From IMG/VR virus record IMGVR_UViG_2654587569_000008: a stretch of DNA of 11,201 nt. One strand, written 5' to 3'. The notes beneath the pieces are model-generated. The model was not told where the DNA came from and did no database searches. It was given only the letters and a program-made list of their open reading frames with translations. The position numbers and the translations under genes are program-made. Source of the DNA: a virus. Its lineage: Duplodnaviria; Heunggongvirae; Uroviricota; Caudoviricetes. Below are positions 1,949-10,627 of this stretch, piece by piece (position 1 is the stretch's first letter; each line of letters opens with the position of its first letter).

Positions 1949-2097
1949 TGGTGTGAGGCGTAACGCGATGAACATAACAAAAAGCGCCCCGTTACCGGAG
2001 CGCCCTTGCGAACAATTAACCTGCTGCGAAAAAAATGGATCAGTGCAGGGGAATTATATCAACCGTGTGGCGAAGCGCCACAATTGCCGGATAACAG

Positions 2098-2127
2098 GCA
2101 AAACAAAGGCCACCCGCTACGGTGGCC
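2098..2127 (-). terminator. Rho-independent terminator for the minus-strand two-gene unit
   Basis: Perfect 7-bp GC-rich stem GGCCACC-(CGCTAC)-GGTGGCC; on the minus strand it is followed by TTTGTTTT. Lies about 80 nt beyond the stop at 2207. Confidence 0.6.
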
Positions 2128-2206
2128 CCTCGACACAAGCTACACGTTATCCCCAACGCATGAGCATCACCAACAATGCCACATTTGCGGCTGGTGGGCA
2201 ATGTGA

Positions 2207-2380
2207 TCAGTCAGATTTGGTTCGTTCCAAGGTTTGCAACGAGAGCTTTTTCCTGTGCTCTTTAAGGAATTTCTCAAGAGCAAACGAACAAGGTGCGAAT
2301 CTTTCTGATTCATGTTCTATCTTTCTGCGCCGTCTTTTCCGTGCCGGTGATAATGTTTTGGTCAATTCTTTATCGGTCAT
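2207..2380 (-). CDS. Hypothetical small highly basic protein (57 aa; alternative start at 2395)
   Basis: Second gene of the minus-strand unit. AGGA about 9 nt upstream of the ATG at 2380. Arg/Lys-rich (ARKRRRRK); no recognisable family. Confidence 0.4.
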   Translation of the reverse strand: MTDKELTKTLSPARKRRRRKIEHESERFAPCSFALEKFLKEHRKKLSLQTLERTKSD

Positions 2381-2437
2381 TGTGTTGTCCTGCATAGCAA
2401 TGCGCCGTAGTTACTCACACCACGGCGCTGGTGATGG

Positions 2438-2617
2438 TTACTCCTGCTCTTTGGCCTTGCGCCGCTGGCGGCGTTTGATCTCGCCTTGCATTGACGTAAT
2501 GATGAATTGTGATGTGCTTTCGCCTGATTCTTTCACTGATTCCATGGCGTTTACTATTTCGTGTGGTACACGAGCCTTTAGAGCTTGTGATTTTGCGTTT
2601 GTTGTACCCGTTGCCAT
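2438..2617 (-). CDS. Small putative DNA-binding regulator (ribbon-helix-helix-like pattern), candidate island repressor
   Basis: 59-aa ORF starting at an internal ATG of the listed 2438..2791 frame, with GAGGAA 7 nt upstream. KSQALKARVPHEIVNAMESVKESGESTSQFIITSM resembles the strand-helix-helix layout of CopG/Arc proteins. Divergent from the early operon with operators in between. Function is inferred, not demonstrated. Confidence 0.45.
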   Translation of the reverse strand: MATGTTNAKSQALKARVPHEIVNAMESVKESGESTSQFIITSMQGEIKRRQRRKAKEQE

Positions 2618-2678
2618 TTCTATTCCTCTGGTGGATTGGTGGGGGACAGTATACACAGAAAAAGCACAAATAAAACTC

Positions 2679-2724
2679 TTGACGTGGGCCACACCTAAAA
2701 CATATAGTGGGCCACACCTTAAAA
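2679..2724 (+). promoter_or_regulatory. Sigma70-like early promoter overlapped by two direct-repeat palindromic operators
   Basis: TTGACG (2679-2684), 18-nt spacer, TATAGT (2703-2708). Two copies of GTGGGCCACACCT(T)AAAA at 2684-2700 and 2707-2724, 23 bp apart, one between -35 and -10 and one over the start region. Core GTGG-G-CCAC is itself a palindrome. Confidence 0.45.
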
Positions 2725-2816
2725 TTATCAAGGCGCATAAATGCAAAGCCCCGCAAGTGTCGTTACCACTCGCAGGGCTTCTAACCACCAACGATAGCAG
2801 AAGTATCGAGGTAGCT

Positions 2817-3023
2817 ATGAGAAATTATACCAGACACCCGCAAGGGCGGGACTCGCACAACCTGAATAAATACATCTGGCGTTTTATCGCCCTGAGCACG
2901 GCACAACCGCGCGTGATTACCATTGAGGCCACCAGCGAACAGGAAGCACGCCAGCAATCTCCTGATGGCTGCGTGATGGTATTCGCCGCCCGTATTCGTC
3001 AGGAGGTGCGCCATGTGCAATAA
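2817..3023 (+). CDS. Hypothetical protein (68 aa), possible first gene of the early operon
   Basis: ATG with GAGGT 5-6 nt upstream; its stop overlaps the next gene's start. It is the 3' part of a long, otherwise implausible plus-strand ORF, so confidence is low. Confidence 0.3.
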   Translation: MRNYTRHPQGRDSHNLNKYIWRFIALSTAQPRVITIEATSEQEARQQSPDGCVMVFAARIRQEVRHVQ

Positions 3024-3252
3024 CCCCCGTCCGGACGCAGCCGCCGAAGCTATCAGAACGCTGATGCACGCGCTGATTGATATTTCATGCACGGCAGCAA
3101 CCGCAGAAAAACACATTACCAGAGAGCCGGAATATACAGGGGCAATAATCCCGCATTCGCTGGCCTACGCACAGCTTACCGCTGATATGGCACTGAATGA
3201 GGCCAGGGCTATCCTGATTGCTGATTGTGAAAATGGGGGGGGTTATGCGTGA
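3013..3252 (+). CDS. Hypothetical protein (79 aa)
   Basis: Strong Shine-Dalgarno AGGAGGTG 5 nt upstream of the ATG. Stop overlaps the next start (ATGCGTGA). Confidence 0.55.
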   Translation: MCNNPRPDAAAEAIRTLMHALIDISCTAATAEKHITREPEYTGAIIPHSLAYAQLTADMALNEARAILIADCENGGGYA

Positions 3253-3703: not shown

Positions 3704-4003
3704 ATGAAACAGAAAAATTCTGGCTTTACTGCCAGCGGCCTCTCTCGGCCTGAAATCCGCCCCGGCGATATTTTCAAAGATAAATACGGCGGCACTGTAA
3801 CGATTAAAAGCGTGGTGGGACGGTGTGTTACTTACCGCCGTGATGGGTACGGCTATGACTGCGTGATGCCTGTTTATCAGTTCCGGCGTGATTTTTCTCT
3901 GGTACAGAACGCAACACGCGGTAAGCCCACCAGCAGGGAAAAAGCACGGGAAAATATTAAGAAAATAAAAAGCATGCTCAGCGCATCCAGAGGTAAAAAA
4001 TGA
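3704..4003 (+). CDS. Hypothetical protein (99 aa), basic C-terminus
   Basis: GGAGAA upstream of the ATG; its stop overlaps the repA start (ATGA at 4000-4003). Confidence 0.55.
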   Translation: MKQKNSGFTASGLSRPEIRPGDIFKDKYGGTVTIKSVVGRCVTYRRDGYGYDCVMPVYQFRRDFSLVQNATRGKPTSREKARENIKKIKSMLSASRGKK

Positions 4004-5406
4004 AACTGGCACCGAACGTAAAACTGTTACCGAAAGATAAACACACTGAGGCGGTTATTTTTGCGGGTGATAATGCTCACTCCTTTGCAGAACATTACAT
4101 GATTGCACAGGCCAAAAAAGCAGGCGATCCCATCCCTCCGGTTTACCTGGGCCGTTATCAGTTAAGCGAACTGGACAATTTACAGATTGTTGATGAAGGA
4201 CGATACAGAGCAAAGGTCATACGCGCCGGAAACCTGGACGATATGCAGATGCTGACCATTGCCACCAAATTGGCGATCGCAGGTGTCCGGGAAGCGCGGT
4301 TACTTTCAGAGAATTTCGAACTACTGGAGGACTGGAGCGAGCAACTACCGCGGCTTAAAGAAACCTGGGAACGCGGGGAAAGTCTGGTCATGAATGGTGG
4401 AAAGCGAAAAATCACACTTCCCATCTCATGGGGTTCTGAGGGATTCGACGCGCAGCAAAGCTACGTAATTAAGGGGCTTATTCCGGCTGAATCATTATGC
4501 AGCACCTACGGGGCCAGCGGTTCTTATAAATCGTTCCTGGCTATTTCCTGGTCGTGTCATGTTGCCACAGGTATAGCATGGGGAGGCCGCAGGGTAAGTA
4601 AGGGCGCGGTTATTTATATCGCTGGCGAAGGCAGCATGGGCGTAAAACGCCGCGTTAAGGCGTGGGAGATAACCCACGACAAGGTGGTTACAGATTTGTG
4701 CATCATTAACGCGCCTGTTTTCCCTGCATCGCCTGACTATGTGGAGCAGGTTATCAGAACTGCCGGACTTGTTAAGAGCAGAACGGGCGAAAATGTGCGG
4801 CTGATTGTGATAGACACGCTGGCCCGTTGCTTTGGTGGGAATGATGAAAATGATTCCCGTGATATGGGCGCATTTATCCAGGGGTGTGACGCGATAAAGC
4901 AGGCCACAGGGGCCACGGTGCTGGTGGTTCACCATTCCGGCAAGGATGAAACAAAGGGGGCGCGTGGTTCCAGCGCATTCCGTGCCGCACTGGATGCAGA
5001 GTACCGAATCAGCCGGGAAAATTCAGACGTTACAGCACTGGTGGCGGCGTGTACGAAGATGAAGGACGCAGAGGAGCCAAAAGAAAGCGCATACGACCTT
5101 AAAAGCGTGGAGGTGTTTACCGATACAGATGGCGAAGAGATTGTGTCCATGGTGGTGATTGACGTTCCCCGCGCCCCTGCTGAACTGGAACGCATCGAGG
5201 AGGCCGGGAACAAGACGGAAAATCACACGGCTTTATGGGGTTGTATCCGATCACGTATACAGCATGGTGATAAATGCACGATCCCGCTGCTACGTGACGA
5301 CATGAAAAAGCTGGGATATGACACAAAACACCTTAAACGATGGTTAGCAAAACTGGAAAAAGACGGCGTGATTTGCGTCGATGGGGATGATGTTCACCCA
5401 CTGTAA
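4000..5406 (+). CDS. Replication initiator/helicase, RepA-like RecA-fold ATPase (AAA_25-like)
   Basis: 468 aa. Walker A-like GASGSYKS, Walker B-like LIVIDTLARCF, a VLVVHHSGKDE motif, and a basic C-terminal tail that could be a DNA-binding domain. No primase domain recognised. Followed immediately by an iteron array. Confidence 0.85.
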   Translation: MKLAPNVKLLPKDKHTEAVIFAGDNAHSFAEHYMIAQAKKAGDPIPPVYLGRYQLSELDNLQIVDEGRYRAKVIRAGNLDDMQMLTIATKLAIAGVREARLLSENFELLEDWSEQLPRLKETWERGESLVMNGGKRKITLPISWGSEGFDAQQSYVIKGLIPAESLCSTYGASGSYKSFLAISWSCHVATGIAWGGRRVSKGAVIYIAGEGSMGVKRRVKAWEITHDKVVTDLCIINAPVFPASPDYVEQVIRTAGLVKSRTGENVRLIVIDTLARCFGGNDENDSRDMGAFIQGCDAIKQATGATVLVVHHSGKDETKGARGSSAFRAALDAEYRISRENSDVTALVAACTKMKDAEEPKESAYDLKSVEVFTDTDGEEIVSMVVIDVPRAPAELERIEEAGNKTENHTALWGCIRSRIQHGDKCTIPLLRDDMKKLGYDTKHLKRWLAKLEKDGVICVDGDDVHPL

Positions 5407-5610
5407 AAAGTGGGCGTTAAAAGTGGGAATAGTGGGTAATTTAACCGAAATTTAACAAAATCGCCCACTTTCCCACGTGTATACATCCAAAAAAGTGGGC
5501 ACTAAAAAAATACTTATGAAACAGTACGATATAAAACCACAAAATCCCAGGTGGGACGAAGTGGGAAACCATGAAAAGTGGGCAGAAAAAGTGGGCACAG
5601 GTGGGCGCAT
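5404..5610. repeat. Iteron array, putative origin of replication
   Basis: Eleven copies of the GTGGG core within about 200 bp, mostly as AAAAGTGGGC(A): nine direct (5410, 5423, 5432, 5495, 5551, 5561, 5578, 5591, 5601) and two inverted CCCAC (5464, 5472), with A-rich spacers. Directly downstream of repA. Confidence 0.6.
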
Positions 5611-8319: not shown

Positions 8320-8400
8320 CTGGCGGGTCCTTTCCGGCGATCCGGCAGGCTACGGGGCGGCGACCTTGCGTATTTTCGCTATTTATGAGCCTTTTCGGGT
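8320..8400. other. Lambda-like cos site (cosQ, cosN, I2-like segment)
   Basis: GGGTCCTTTCCGGCGATCCGGCAGGCTACGGGGCGGCGACCTTGCGTATTTTCGCTATTTATGAGCCTTTTCGGG is nearly identical to the lambda/cosmid cos sequence as recalled. The 12-nt cohesive-end sequence GGGCGGCGACCT is at 8355-8366. Confidence 0.8.
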
Positions 8401-8499
8401 TGGTGGTGGTGGTTTTGTTTTTCGCTCTATCTCTATGAATAAAAAGGGAAAGATAACACCAACACACCAACCTGAAACCTTAACTAAGTGGGGATATTG

Positions 8500-9042
8500 A
8501 TGAAATCGCACCTGATGAACAAAAAAACTATGGCGCAAAGCTGCCGCGTAAGTGCGACAGCGTTCGACAAGTGGGGAGTAACTCCCGTTGAGCGTAAAGG
8601 CCGTGAGGCGTTTTATGATGTTGCTAGCGTGATAGACAATAGGGTTAACAATGCAATTAACCAGCTTACAAACGACAAAGGCGAGATTGATGATGATGAA
8701 CTTTTACGCGTAAGAATCAGATTAATGACGGCCCAGGCGGAAGCGCAGGAACTTAAAAACGAGCGCGAACGCGGCGAGGTGATTGATACAAAGTTTTGCA
8801 TCTACGCGATTTCAAAACTAGCGAGTCAGATTTCATCAATCATGGACAGCCTCCCGCTCACAATGCAAAGGCGCTTTCCCGATATAAGGCCGTATATGCT
8901 GGATGAACTAAAAAGGGAAATAGCCAAAGCATGTAACGCATGTGCAAGACTTGACGAAAACCTGCCACAGATACTGGCTGATTACCTGATGGAAACTACC
9001 GGAAACGCGCCTGAGAAGTTGCTACAGAACAAAGGCGAGTAA
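8500..9042 (+). CDS. Terminase small subunit, lambda Nu1 family
   Basis: About 180 aa from the ATG at 8500 (ORF listed from the GTG at 8488). C-terminal two-thirds align by eye with Nu1 (RLMTAQAEAQELKNERERGEVIDTKFCIYAISKLASQISSIMDSLPLTMQRRFPDI against Nu1 RLTRAQADAQELKNARDSAEVVETAFCTFVLSRIAGEIASILDGLPLSVQRRFPEL). N-terminal DNA-binding region is related but more diverged. About 135 bp downstream of cosN, as in lambda. Confidence 0.85.
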   Translation: MKSHLMNKKTMAQSCRVSATAFDKWGVTPVERKGREAFYDVASVIDNRVNNAINQLTNDKGEIDDDELLRVRIRLMTAQAEAQELKNERERGEVIDTKFCIYAISKLASQISSIMDSLPLTMQRRFPDIRPYMLDELKREIAKACNACARLDENLPQILADYLMETTGNAPEKLLQNKGE

Positions 9043-9115
9043 CCGCCGCCCCGTAACGGGCCATAATTCCAGGAAGGACCCGACGACACCAGGCTATCAG
9101 AACGATGAGGGCACA

Positions 9116-9397
9116 ATGACTGAAGCCGAACTACTGGGATTAATCCGCCGCGTCGTCGGAATCAGCCAGCAGCATGACGAACAGGCCACACAGCCGGACA
9201 GCGTGACCGCTGAAAATTATGTGCGTGTTGTTGCTGAGGTGATGCGCCGTGATGGTATTGAGCTTAACGGCGTGGATATGCGCAACATACGAACAAGAGT
9301 CCTTGAGTTGCTGGCATACCGTCGCCGTTCTCAACAACGGAGGGAGAGCGCGAAAAATACTTACCAGTGGAAGAAGCCGGAACGGTTGCGGCGGTAG
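9116..9397 (+). CDS. Hypothetical protein (93 aa)
   Basis: GAGGG 5 nt upstream of the ATG. Last gene of the late module; no recognisable family. Confidence 0.45.
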   Translation: MTEAELLGLIRRVVGISQQHDEQATQPDSVTAENYVRVVAEVMRRDGIELNGVDMRNIRTRVLELLAYRRRSQQRRESAKNTYQWKKPERLRR

Positions 9398-9534
9398 ATT
9401 CCTGATATTCAGGAAAACCACGAATCTGTGGGGTTTACTGGCGCGGTTACGGCGGTGACACGCACCGAGGCAGAACGATTACCGTAAGTTAAAGTGACGG
9501 TATTCACACCAAAGGCAGAAATCAGCGGTTAACG

Positions 9535-9705
9535 TAACTGACTGATATTTTCGGGAACAGCCAACGGCTGAGGCCGGAACAACCGACTATCTTTCAGATA
9601 GTCACAAACTACGAAATTTTCGCAGTTTAATTACTCGCCAGCTTAATCGCTAACCCACTGATATTTTCGGAAACCTCGATTTGAGGAGACCGGAACGTCT
9701 ACATA
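9535..9705. repeat. Two imperfect ~50-bp direct repeats with a structure-preserving variable hairpin
   Basis: Copy 1 at 9535-9590 and copy 2 at 9651-9705 share ACTGATATTTTCGG(G/A)AAC and AG(G/A)CCGGAAC. The segment between them differs in sequence but forms a hairpin in both (CAGCC-AAC-GGCTG against CCTC-GATTT-GAGG). Confidence 0.4.
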
Positions 9706-10115
9706 GCTGCATCACCGTAATGATGATTTGGCCCACCAGCAACCATAACGATTTCCGTTACAGTTGATGTGCTTTTTTGCTGGTAAGGAGTAACCTGTTG
9801 ATTGTTCCAGAATCCCCCATTGGGGAAAACTGGAAAACTCACCCTCCAGATTCTGAATGGTGAAAATGACCATTCAGCTTCATGTGTCCATTTTCCCGAA
9901 ACAGGAAAACCCGTTTTCGGGAGAAGGTGCGATTATGTTCGTCATACCTGTTCCGTTGAAACGGAATACCCCATTCCGGCGTAGCTGATGGACGCACAGC
10001 CACATACAACTAACTTTGCGCGTCAGTATTGCTGACCCGCAAACAACAACCAGGCAACAGAACGTTACCCGATTCAGCCGTTCGGTGGCATCACTGGACC
10101 CACTTTCCTGATGCG

Positions 10116-10271
10116 TTTGCGGGTTATTTGGGGGGTGTTTGCGGGTTATTTTGAATGTCTTGCGGGTTACGTTTTGGCTAACATTTAAACACACCATTTT
10201 CCAACACATTGATATTAAAGAATAAAAAATACTTAGCACGCGAAGATAACCCGCTAACCCGCATAACCCGC
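10116..10271. repeat. TGCGGGTTA repeat array: three direct and three inverted copies flanking an AT-rich core
   Basis: Direct copies at about 10116, 10138 and 10158 (roughly 21-22 bp apart). Contiguous inverted copies GATAACCCGC / TAACCCGC / ATAACCCGC at 10245-10271. About 75 bp of AT-rich DNA between the clusters. Confidence 0.5.
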
Positions 10272-10383
10272 ACTGTTTTGTATATATATACGAAAAATTG
10301 CATTCAGGAGGGGGGATCGGAATCCCTACACCCCATTGCTTATGGAACCGCCCGCCCCGTCAAATTTTTACATCCGCGAAATT

Positions 10384-10412
10384 AAAAAAATGCGTCACGC
10401 AGGTGGGCGTGA
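10384..10412 (-). terminator. Rho-independent terminator (minus strand)
   Basis: Stem TCACGC-(AGGTGG)-GCGTGA; on the minus strand it is followed by the complement of AAAAAAA (10384-10390). A perfect 8-bp palindrome CGATACCG-GGATCT-CGGTATCG sits next to it at 10415-10436. Confidence 0.45.
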
Positions 10413-10627
10413 TGTCGATACCGGGATCTCGGTATCGGTTTATCCGTGATCATCCACCAGCTTGATAACGGATAACAGGGAGTCATAACAGTTAAAATTG
10501 TATACTTTTGCAGCAAACATTTTTAGCTACACGTTAAGCTATACGATTTTTGACTTACAAATTTCAACCTTAATTAAATCAAGTAGTTATTGGTGTGTTT
10601 TGAATACTCTCGTGAAAATCCCAAGAA

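What the first reader, a model, noticed from the sequence alone, without database searches (positions are those of the whole stretch)
9400..10000. ORF-free, hairpin-dense segment with covarying repeated hairpins: candidate structured RNA or protein-binding array
After the last late gene there is about 600 bp with no credible ORF but many short perfect stems: GACTATCT-TTC-AGATAGTC (around 9584-9602), CTGAATGGT-GAAAATG-ACCATTCAG (around 9850-9875), CCCCA-T-TGGGG, CCCGAAAC...GTTTTCGGG, GGAAT-ACCCC-ATTCC. The two ~50-bp direct repeats at 9535-9590 and 9651-9705 keep their flanks but change their internal hairpin in a way that preserves pairing. Compensatory change of that kind suggests selection on structure rather than sequence. 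Candidates include a regulatory or immunity RNA (as the CI RNA of P4), recombinase/IHF arm sites, or a packaging or partition element.
Basis: seen in the sequence. Interest (0 to 1): 0.55.

Follow-up and report, generated by a model that had tools for sequence, protein, structure and literature searches.

The report
IHF-box hairpin repeats in satellite tail
The non-coding tail of this E. coli phage satellite (a PICI) carries three copies of a conserved element, a binding-site consensus for the host protein IHF joined to a hairpin whose pairing is kept by compensatory changes, and the same element is embedded in phage roi/rha genes, which suggests an undescribed point of contact between satellites, phages and the host.

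Summary
Window 9398-10000 has no credible ORF and folds far better than shuffles (z = -6.0 and -9.0). The two reported repeats belong to a family of ~60-nt units with three copies here (9530-9589, 9646-9705, 9786-9845). Each unit has an exact IHF consensus box (YAANNNNYTGATW) followed by a two-tier palindrome. Across 38 distinct units 91% of pair cells are paired and all five inner pairs show double changes (0 of 500 shuffles match). The other listed hairpins have no comparative support.

The window is an EcCICFT073-type PICI at tRNA-Pro. Its cos sites, ori and Int arm sites all lie outside the segment, and no P4 CI/C4-type RNA is detected. Arrays of 1-4 co-oriented units follow the last gene in 53 of 65 related satellites, including EcCICFT073 itself. 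They also occur in Xenorhabdus, Gilliamella, Yersinia and Nitrincola.

The same unit sits antisense inside phage roi/rha genes, which are linked to IHF in the literature.

Best reading (about 0.45): DNA sites that bind IHF, probably with a Roi/Rha-type protein. An RNA role is not excluded. Papers on these PICIs do not mention the array.

The parts
9530..9589 (+). Unit 1: IHF-consensus box TAACTGACTGATA (9535-9547), outer stem TTTCGG/CCGGAA, inner hairpin CAGCC-AAC-GGCTG (stems 9549-9579)
   Evidence: Covariance model R1 65.6 bits, E 4e-17; IHF pattern hit at 9535-9547
9646..9705 (+). Unit 2: box TAACCCACTGATA (9651-9663), outer stem TTTCGG/CCGGAA, inner hairpin CCTC-GATTT-GAGG. About 92% identical over 36 nt to the element inside a phage roi gene
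   Evidence: R1 70.2 bits; IHF pattern hit; BLAST to the PhiR49_2 Roi gene, 91.7% over query positions 20-55; the most widely conserved non-coding piece of the tail
9786..9845 (+). Unit 3: box TAACCTGTTGATT (9791-9803), outer stem TTCCAG/CTGGAA (compensatory relative to units 1 and 2), inner hairpin CCCC(C)-ATT-GGGG
   Evidence: R1 66.8 bits; IHF pattern hit
9585..9630 (.). Inter-unit spacer with two small hairpins (GACTATCT-TTC-AGATAGTC and CTACGAAA-TTTTCGCAG). Conserved in a subset of relatives, with no compensatory changes
9853..9978 (.). The first is not conserved in most relatives, the second is broken in three relatives, and the third is invariant among close relatives. There is no evidence of selection on their structure
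   Evidence: Alignment of nine relatives
9116..9397 (+). orf93 (phrog_1561, function unknown), the last gene of the late operon. It directly precedes the array in most relatives, and in some the unit's TAA is its stop codon
10117..10272 (.). Context, not part of the units: three direct TTGCGGGTTA and three inverted TAACCCGC repeats flanking an AT-rich centre that holds an IHF consensus (10202-10214)
10513..10614 (+). Context: right arm of the attachment site. Doubled Int arm-type motif AGCTACACG-TTA-AGCTATACG (10513-10537), IHF consensus (10577-10589), and a degenerate attR core at about 10603-10614 (ACTCTCGTG, compare the 3' end of tRNA-Pro)
8325..8478 (+). Context: cos1 (lambda-like cosQ-cosN, with the cosN 12-mer at 8355-8366) followed by a long hairpin at 8392-8478 in the cosB position, upstream of the terS/rpp-like gene
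9040..9062 (-). Context: second, inverted cosN-like core (CCGTTACG|GGGCGGCGGTTA) overlapping the stop codon of the terS/rpp-like gene
   Evidence: the same layout is seen in EcCICFT073

Best explanation
The flagged segment holds an array of three co-oriented copies of a conserved cis element. Each copy is an IHF binding-site consensus fused to a two-tier palindrome: a 4-6 bp outer stem, a purine-rich 3x3 internal loop, and a 5-bp inner stem with a 3-nt loop. The element is homologous to one embedded antisense in codons ~37-57 of phage roi/rha ('Bro-network') genes, whose toxicity to the phage is known to be held in check by IHF. The most likely mode of action is at the DNA level. Host IHF binds and bends each box. 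The adjacent palindrome, read as a structure (a small cruciform or hairpin) or bound by a Roi/Rha-type protein supplied in trans, completes a nucleoprotein complex at the int-distal end of the satellite. In the satellite this array would capture or sense Roi/Rha-type regulators of helper or competing phages, or organise that end of the element. Shown here: the anatomy, the conservation, the covariation, the IHF consensus and the homology to roi/rha. Inferred: IHF binding, any second protein, and the biological role.
For: The family is real: iterative nhmmer gave 121 hits and 39 distinct units in related satellite loci, and the pooled set has 92 distinct units. Pairing is selected. In the box, T6 A7 A8 and T14 G15 A16 T17 are invariant, column 18 is A or T, column 13 is T or C, and variation sits at the four N positions of YAANNNNTTGATW. 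The IHF pattern occurs 6 times in the window against 0.95 expected (0 of 200 shuffles), and the other three hits are beside cos, in the AT-rich centre of the iteron block, and next to the attR core. Homology to phage genes: R1 scores 59.6 bits inside PhiR49_2 roi and 26.7 bits inside P22 rha, where an exact IHF consensus adjoins a hairpin. HK022 roi has an exact IHF consensus plus a palindrome at the same codons. In viral contigs 89 of 146 units are embedded antisense in Rha-like ORFs. The encoded peptide varies there (PQIE, PPLE, PAMQ, PALQ) while the palindrome is kept. Literature: P22/phi80 rha is detrimental without IHF, and IHF regulates rha (PMC4936722; note in the phi80 record). [quoted passage not shown] From my own memory of Clerget & Boccard 1996 (PMID 8763934, not held): Roi binds a site inside roi next to an IHF site, and IHF stabilises that binding. 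For DNA rather than RNA: there is no strand preference in the covarying pairs (inner stem G.U 8 against A.C 15); the same element works in opposite orientation relative to transcription in roi/rha genes and in satellites; and in two Xenorhabdus islands the units lie at the int-distal end pointing outward although the neighbouring genes run the other way.
Against: There is no binding data of any kind. If a single protein read the palindrome by sequence, the three different inner stems within one array would be hard to explain, so pairing itself seems to matter, and a 13-bp inner palindrome is short for cruciform extrusion in vivo. This PICI encodes no Rha/Roi-type protein detectable by Pfam or PHROGs. 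The proven helpers of EcCICFT073 do not carry the unit where I could search: none in the ~37 kb of CFT073 phage 4 held in L296, none in the phi80 rha gene, and only the first 800 bp of lambda were searched. Mobilisation by those helpers therefore does not require a helper roi gene bearing the unit. All 107 units in E. coli-type satellites are co-oriented with the upstream operon, which equally fits a transcribed RNA element. The key statement about Roi's binding site rests on memory.
Confidence: 0.45

Rival explanations
1. RNA element. The units are transcribed as the 3' untranslated tail of the late operon and act as structured RNA. One version is a stabiliser or protein-binding hairpin. A more specific version is an antisense RNA against the 5' part of roi/rha mRNAs of helper or competing phages, with different units matching different phage alleles.
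For: No + strand terminator or promoter is predicted between orf93 and the units, so read-through is expected. All 107 units are co-oriented with orf93, which makes the transcript antisense to roi/rha. Unit 2 is about 92% identical over 36 nt to the antisense strand of a phage roi. Hairpin pairing is under selection, and unpaired A27, A34 and A42 are invariant or nearly so.
Against: The covarying pairs show no G.U excess on the + strand. The apparent excess (65 against 12) comes from the T-tract columns 20-22, where pairing is weak. The box shows the conservation pattern of a DNA IHF site. In Xenorhabdus islands no co-oriented operon precedes the units. Loops of 3 nt are poor for kissing interactions. 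There is no Rfam family match and no expression data.
Confidence: 0.25
2. Recombination linker or hot spot. The units are conserved boundary sequences, possibly cruciform-prone and IHF-bent, at which modules are exchanged between satellites and phages, marking the cargo-insertion zone of the tail.
For: Conservation of the tail is mosaic, and BLAST match boundaries fall at unit 2 (window ~9650 and ~9687). Relatives carry accessory genes (PerC-type regulator, hypothetical proteins) between two units (L003 units at +224 and +1391; L292-L295). In roi/rha the element lies just after the N-terminal DNA-binding domain of proteins known for domain shuffling (PMC10111431).
Against: This does not explain why pairing of otherwise free positions is maintained. 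A conserved functional site embedded in variable DNA would give the same BLAST pattern. No dedicated recombinase is evident.
Confidence: 0.12
3. Single-strand DNA signal. The hairpins form on one DNA strand during satellite replication and serve as priming or primosome-assembly sites, working with the satellite's own SSB and helicase/primase.
For: Orientation is fixed relative to the element rather than to local transcription. The satellite encodes SSB and a RepA-type helicase. Small triloop hairpins are stable in ssDNA.
Against: The array is shared by satellites with different replication proteins (RepA helicase or DNA primase family). The covarying pairs show no strand bias. The element also sits inside phage roi/rha genes that have no such replication context. 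The ori iterons lie 4 kb away at 5405-5600.
Confidence: 0.06
4. Decaying relics. The units are non-functional leftovers of 5' fragments of roi/rha genes captured from phages.
For: On the minus strand each unit still reads like the Roi segment (FRSPQIEVSENISGLA against Roi's VRSPQIEVSERINNLG).
Against: Only the ~60-nt element is retained, in 1-4 tandem co-oriented copies, across E. coli, Xenorhabdus and Nitrincola islands. Pairing is kept with 34 different inner sequences. The three window units fall in three different frames bounded by stops. Conservation follows the box and stem pattern, not codon periodicity.
Confidence: 0.05

Closest known systems
The IHF site and adjacent Roi-binding site inside the roi gene of phage HK022, and the IHF-regulated rha genes of P22 and phi80 (Clerget & Boccard 1996, PMID 8763934; Henthorn & Friedman 1995, PMID 7768817)
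   Same: Both have an exact IHF consensus next to a small palindrome. Direct sequence and structure homology was shown here: 59.6 bits in a phage roi, 26.7 bits in P22 rha, and a weak match in HK022 roi.
   Different: Here the element is free-standing and non-coding, repeated 1-4 times, at the int-distal end of a satellite that has no roi/rha gene of its own. Its inner stems are more diverse than in phage genes. Binding by IHF or Roi has not been tested for these copies.
BIME-1 / RIP (RIB) elements of E. coli: an IHF site flanked by REP palindromes in extragenic 3' regions (own knowledge)
   Same: Both combine an IHF consensus with a structure-forming palindrome, lie downstream of operons, and have an uncertain function.
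   Different: The sequence bears no resemblance to REP that I could see (a visual comparison from memory, not a formal test). There is one palindrome per IHF site. The units are not dispersed in the chromosome: the pattern scan of one representative genome per species found a single hit in E. coli. They are confined to satellites and phage roi/rha genes.
P4 CI RNA and the C4/isrK immunity RNAs (Rfam RF01695, RF01394)
   Same: Both are small structured elements of satellites or phages linked to Bro-network genes, and C4/isrK lie next to roi in phage PhiR49_2.
   Different: There is no model match in the window, the position is different (tail rather than Bro zone; PMC10111431), and the architecture differs.
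IHF sites of lambda attP (H1, H2, H') and cosB (I1)
   Same: They share the same consensus, and the window has such sites at the expected places near attR (10577) and beside cos (8280).
   Different: The units are 760-1080 bp from the att core and more than 1.1 kb from cosN. They are also shared between satellites that use different att sites.

Membership tests
roi/rha-internal IHF + palindrome element | Exact IHF consensus (YAANNNNTTGATW / WATCAANNNNTTR) with an A/T-rich flank | tested here: met
   All three units match WATCARNNNNTTR. In 43 units the consensus positions are invariant and the N positions vary.
roi/rha-internal IHF + palindrome element | Sequence and structure homology to the element inside phage roi/rha genes | tested here: met
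   A model built only from satellite units scores 59.6 bits in PhiR49_2 roi, 26.7 bits in P22 rha and 13.1 bits in HK022 roi. In viral contigs 89 of 146 units are embedded in Rha-like ORFs.
roi/rha-internal IHF + palindrome element | Located within the coding sequence of a roi/rha gene | tested here: not met
   The window units are intergenic. Minus-strand frames are interrupted and differ between units, and no Rha/Roi gene is found in the window.
roi/rha-internal IHF + palindrome element | Bound by IHF and by Roi/Rha protein | not testable with these tools
   This needs gel shift, footprinting or ChIP. The published Roi data are recalled from memory only.
P4 CI / C4 / isrK immunity RNA | Match to the Rfam covariance models RF01695 or RF01394 | tested here: not met
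   No hit in the window at E <= 1, nor in the tail at E <= 10. Positive control: C4 at 75.1 bits and isrK at 61.2 bits in L170.
attP arm-type Int/IHF sites | Within about 150-250 bp of the crossover core and specific to the integrase and att site | tested here: not met
   The units lie 760-1080 bp from the core. The arm motif is at 10513-10537. The units are shared by satellites at proL/yejO, next to phoQ, and inside a prophage portal gene.
lambda-type cos site | cosQ-cosN similarity to the helper phage cos | tested here: not met
   The cosN cores are at 8355-8366 (+) and 9040-9051 (-), and there is none in 9400-10000.
REP/BIME dispersed repeats | Many copies dispersed through the host chromosome | tested here: not met
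   The genome contigs pattern scan found one hit in the representative E. coli genome. The window has no unit outside the tail.
Type III toxin-antitoxin antitoxin repeats | Regular tandem repeats immediately upstream of a toxin ORF | tested here: not met
   Spacings are irregular (53-54, 99, 114-116, 141 nt and longer), and no downstream ORF has any family match.
Integron attC sites | Paired inverse-core and core sites (RYYYAAC ... GTTRRRY) and an integron integrase | tested here: not met
   The box resembles RYYYAAC, but visual inspection found no GTTRRRY partner after the units in the tandem array of L008 (sequences). This was not a formal pattern search. The only integrase is a P4-type tyrosine recombinase.
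EcCICFT073-type Gram-negative PICI (the host element) | P4-type int, AlpA, rep gene followed by iteron ori, capsid E and decoration D homologs, Rpp/TerS-like gene, and two lambda-like cos sites | tested here: met
   the layout is the same as in CFT073 itself, matching the published description (PMC6092414, PMC6739421).

The most novel reading that the evidence does not exclude
The array is a multi-allele decoy or sensor aimed at phages. Each unit mimics the internal IHF/Roi operator of a different allele of phage roi/rha, or is antisense to it. A replicating satellite would then titrate or silence these Bro-family regulators of helper or competitor phages. That would make it a non-coding, sequence-programmable interference module sitting in the satellite's accessory hot spot.
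Probability: 0.2. Interest if true: 0.8.

Novelty: new variant of a known kind. Interest (0 to 1): 0.58.

Why it matters
EcCICFT073-type PICIs are the model for Gram-negative phage satellites and are being engineered as delivery vehicles. Their ~0.5-1.2 kb non-coding tail has been treated as empty. This work shows that the tail holds a conserved, structure-constrained element that is present in the prototype itself. About 18% of complete E. coli genomes match at least part of the segment, though that count was not restricted to the units. The element links satellites to two old, poorly understood phage genes (roi and rha) and to the host factor IHF. That gives concrete, cheap experiments: IHF and Roi gel shifts, deletion of a 200-bp array in CFT073, and tests in ihf mutants. 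These could reveal a new layer of satellite-helper-host interaction and clarify what Roi/Rha proteins do. It also warns annotators that apparent RNA covariation can arise from DNA palindromes.

Tried and rejected
1. Sense-strand RNA inferred from a G.U excess (65 against 12). Withdrawn: the excess comes from T-tract columns 20-22, which pair poorly, and the covarying pairs show none.
2. P4 CI/C4/isrK RNA. No Rfam hit, with a positive control.
3. cos or packaging site. The cos sites are located elsewhere.
4. Int arm sites. These are located at 10513-10537.
5. Origin of replication. The Rep iterons AAAGTGGGC are at 5405-5600.
6. Minus-strand gene through the units. Stops occur in all frames, and the units are in different frames.
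7. Inverted relic of a phage 'rha...cos' right end. orf93 has essentially no phage homologs.
8. orf93 as the binding protein. The AlphaFold model is too poor to use (pLDDT 62.5), so no fold search was run. Pfam gives nothing and PHROGs gives a family of unknown function.
9. attC-like, REP/BIME and type III antitoxin readings (see the membership tests).
10. Promoter and terminator scans of three tails gave counts at or below chance.
11. The original Roi paper could not be read.
12. Most hits of the genome-wide pattern scan were chance matches in AT-rich genomes and were filtered out with the model.

Full report
CONTEXT

The window is a phage satellite of the EcCICFT073 type (a Gram-negative PICI) integrated at tRNA-Pro between yejM and yejO.
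- Its genes all read rightward. They are a P4-type integrase (1-1242), an AlpA homolog (1742-1948), DUF4222, a RepA-type helicase (4000-5406), SSB, homologs of lambda capsid protein E and decoration protein D, a second AlpA-like protein, a Nu1/TerS-like protein (8488-9042) and a 93-aa protein, orf93 (9116-9397).
- Close relatives sit at the same chromosomal site.
- Conserved chromosome resumes at about 10615.
- A degenerate copy of the 3' end of tRNA-Pro marks the attR core at about 10603-10614.
- The non-coding tail is therefore 9398-10614, and RefSeq leaves it unannotated in relatives.

WHERE THE KNOWN CIS SITES ARE

- A near copy of lambda cosQ-cosN lies at 8325-8389, followed by a long hairpin in the cosB position, upstream of the TerS/Rpp-like gene.
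- A second, inverted cosN core overlaps that gene's stop codon at 9040-9062.
- This is the published two-cos layout of EcCICFT073 (PMC6092414 and PMC6739421), and I see the same layout in CFT073 itself.
- Iterons of the ori type (AAAGTGGGC, in direct and inverted copies) follow the helicase gene at 5405-5600, where PICI origins were mapped.
- The doubled Int arm-type motif is at 10513-10537. Its second copy on the attL side is in L001. The distances from the core (about 81-90 and about 133 bp) agree with those reported for a related integrase clade.
- None of these sites lies in 9400-10000.

THE OBSERVATION

- The segment has no credible ORF.
- It folds much better than dinucleotide shuffles on both strands, z = -6.0 and -9.0.
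- The two direct repeats are real.
- Using about 90 related loci fetched through orf93, an iterative nhmmer search showed that they belong to a family of units with 121 hits and 39 distinct sequences.
- A covariance model built from 38 distinct units finds exactly three copies in the window, all on the + strand: 9530-9589, 9646-9705 and 9786-9845.

ANATOMY OF A UNIT (60-nt frame)

- Columns 6-18 are TAA-NNNN-YTGAT-W. T6, A7, A8, T14, G15, A16 and T17 are invariant in the 43 distinct units counted.
- Next comes a T-rich run.
- The outer stem is TTYCRG/CYGGAA.
- The internal loop is purine-rich on both sides, with A27 invariant and A42 nearly so.
- The inner stem has 5 bp and a 3-nt loop that starts with an invariant A34.
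- On 38 distinct units 91.1% of pair cells are standard pairs.
- All five inner pairs and two outer pairs show changes on both sides.
- There are 57 double-change cells against 18.1 +/- 3.0 in column shuffles (0 of 500 reach the observed value).
- The signal collapses when the 3' partners are slid by 1-3 columns.
- In the pooled set of 92 distinct units there are 34 different inner sequences, and 92.6% of inner-stem cells are Watson-Crick.

THE OTHER HAIRPINS

- Among nine relatives, the 9-bp stem at 9853-9877 is not conserved: its 3' arm differs in most of them.
- The stem at 9896-9922 is broken in three relatives without compensation.
- The stems at 9951-9978 are invariant among the close relatives.
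- The stem at 9585-9603 is conserved but shows only one-sided changes.
- They add to the folding z-score but carry no evidence of selection on structure.

THE BOX IS AN IHF CONSENSUS

- TAANNNNYTGATW is the classical IHF consensus (YAANNNNTTGATW, or WATCAANNNNTTR on the other strand; established knowledge).
- The invariant columns coincide with the specified positions, and the variable columns with the N positions.
- WATCARNNNNTTR occurs six times in the window against 0.95 expected (0 of 200 shuffles).
- The three hits outside the units are beside cos (8280), in the AT-rich centre of the tail iteron block (10202) and next to the attR core (10577). These are all places where IHF sites are expected.

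DISTRIBUTION

- Part of the segment matches 976 of 5426 complete E. coli genomes, in a mosaic fashion.
- Units occur in satellites at three different integration sites: proL/yejO, beside phoQ, and inside a prophage portal gene.
- Among 65 distinct orf93-bearing loci with at least 500 nt of downstream sequence, 53 have 1-4 units.
- All 107 of those units are co-oriented with orf93. Spacings cluster at 53-54, 99, 114-116 and 141 nt.
- One element lacks orf93 but keeps the array.
- The prototype EcCICFT073 has three units at NC_004431 1388647-1388859, and the first overlaps the stop codon of its orf93 homolog.
- Three papers on that element do not mention IHF, hairpins or palindromes in this region.
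- A pattern scan of one genome per species, filtered with the model, finds strong units in six Xenorhabdus species, Gilliamella, Yersinia pekkanenii and Nitrincola. The inner stems differ but still pair.
- Several of these lie in islands with integrases 56-58% identical to the window's, or with a RepA-type helicase.

THE LINK TO PHAGE ROI/RHA GENES

- In Gilliamella and in one Xenorhabdus locus the unit lies inside the 5' part of Rha/ANT genes, on the antisense strand.
- The same holds for the roi gene of Escherichia phage PhiR49_2, at 59.6 bits over codons 37-57.
- P22 rha has the box and outer stem, with an exact IHF consensus beside a GCGCA-TTTT-TGCG hairpin.
- HK022 roi has an exact IHF consensus plus a CTGCA/TGCAG palindrome at the same codons.
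- In IMG/VR contigs 89 of 146 units are embedded antisense in Rha-like ORFs, mostly in phage-sized contigs. Another 39 are free-standing in satellite-sized contigs and show more inner-stem types.
- In the genes, the peptide encoded across the palindrome varies while the palindrome persists. The nucleic-acid feature is therefore selected even within coding sequence.
- rha and roi are the phage genes whose products block lytic growth when IHF is missing, and IHF regulates rha (PMC4936722; note in the phi80 record).
- From memory of Clerget & Boccard 1996, which I could not open: Roi binds a site within its own gene close to an IHF site, and IHF stabilises the complex.
- C4 and isrK RNAs lie next to roi in PhiR49_2, but they do not overlap the unit.

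DNA OR RNA?

- I first read a G.U excess on the + strand (65 against 12) as evidence for a sense-strand RNA. That was wrong.
- With 92 units the excess is confined to columns 20-22, whose partners pair poorly: pair 20-50 is Watson-Crick in only 35 of 92 units.
- The truly covarying pairs show no preference. The inner stem has G.U 8 against A.C 15, and pairs 23-25 have 22 against 16.
- The T's in columns 20-22 are better explained as the A/T-rich flank of the IHF core.
- Three things favour a DNA-level role. The box has the signature of a protein-binding DNA site. The element is used in opposite orientation relative to transcription in phage genes and in satellites. In two Xenorhabdus islands the units sit at the int-distal end pointing outward although the neighbouring operon runs the other way.
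- Three things favour RNA. Orientation is perfectly consistent with the late operon in E. coli-type satellites. No terminator is predicted before the array. The resulting transcript would be antisense to roi/rha mRNA.
- Pairing of positions that vary freely, with three different inner stems within one array, argues that an intrastrand structure matters (a hairpin or small cruciform) rather than simple sequence reading by a dimer.

WHAT IT IS NOT REQUIRED FOR

- The part of CFT073's helper prophage that I could search has no unit.
- The phi80 rha gene has none either. For lambda, only the first 800 bp were searched.
- Lambda, phi80 and phage 4 all mobilise EcCICFT073 (PMC6092414). The array therefore cannot depend on a helper roi gene that carries the unit.
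- It may instead concern other phages, or IHF alone.

VERDICT

- The finding is a real, conserved and apparently undescribed cis-element array.
- Identification as an IHF-box plus two-tier palindrome that is homologous to the element inside roi/rha genes is secure (about 0.85).
- The mode of action is inferred. IHF-centred nucleoprotein sites at the DNA level are favoured (about 0.45). An RNA role comes next (about 0.25). Recombination linker, single-strand priming signal and relic readings are less likely.
- orf93 could not be characterised: the structure model was poor.

Noticed in passing
window 10117-10272: Three direct TTGCGGGTTA repeats (spacing 22 and 21 nt) and three inverted TAACCCGC repeats flank a ~70-bp AT-rich centre that holds an IHF consensus (10202-10214). 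The block looks like an origin but is not the Rep ori, which is at 5405-5600. It is conserved in relatives that diverge in the att-proximal region (L294, L269, L095). TAACCCG is also the commonest form of the unit box.
   Followed up: partly
window 10416-10437; also L296 about 3975-3996: A second palindrome family occurs in satellite tails, with consensus CGATATGGGGATCCCCATATCG and a central GATC. The window variant is CGATACCGGGATCTCGGTATCG. Another variant, CGATATGGTGATCACCATATCG, differs on both arms. L294 has mismatched arms, as if recombinant.
   Followed up: partly
window 8392-8478: An ~85-nt near-perfect hairpin (GGTTGGTGGTGGTGG...CCAACACACCAACC) lies between cosN and the TerS/Rpp-like gene, in the cosB position. 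It gave spurious miRNA-precursor Rfam hits on both strands. It may be the satellite-specific cosB recognised by Rpp-TerS.
   Followed up: no
window 9040-9062 (- strand) and 10345-10365 (- strand): An inverted second cosN core overlaps the stop codon of the TerS/Rpp-like gene, as cos2 does in EcCICFT073. A third, degenerate cosN-like string (GACGGGGCGGGCGGTTC) lies in the tail.
   Followed up: partly
L003 3093-4530; L292, L293 and L295 about 400-1500: Relatives carry accessory genes (a PerC-family regulator and a small minus-strand hypothetical protein, and a Panacea-domain protein in one strain) in the tail. In L003 these lie between two units. The array zone may therefore be the cargo-insertion hot spot.
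   Followed up: partly
window 9386-9397: The end of orf93 reads GGCGGTAGATTC, 11 of 12 matches to the RfaH ops consensus GGCGGTAGNNTG (recalled from memory). It is probably a coincidence of the Arg-Arg-stop codons.
   Followed up: no
window 1953-3116: The 356-aa + strand ORF 1953-3023 has no family match. AT skew turns negative over about 2100-2700, where minus-strand ORFs lie (2415-2756, 2781-3116). The long + ORF may therefore be spurious, and this part of the 'Bro zone' may be transcribed leftward. No Rha, Bro or Ant domain was detected in this satellite.
   Followed up: partly
L170 1099-2444 (phage PhiR49_2): Here roi directly follows cro, where cII usually sits, and it is followed by isrK and C4 RNAs at the start of the next gene. 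This forms a compact cro-roi-isrK/C4 regulatory block.
   Followed up: no
window 9521-9547: Unit 1 is preceded by an inverted partial copy of the box (AAATCAGCGGTTAA), head-to-head with TAACTGACTGATA. This makes a near-palindrome around TTAACGTAA. It is seen in the subfamily of units with the CAGCC inner stem.
   Followed up: no
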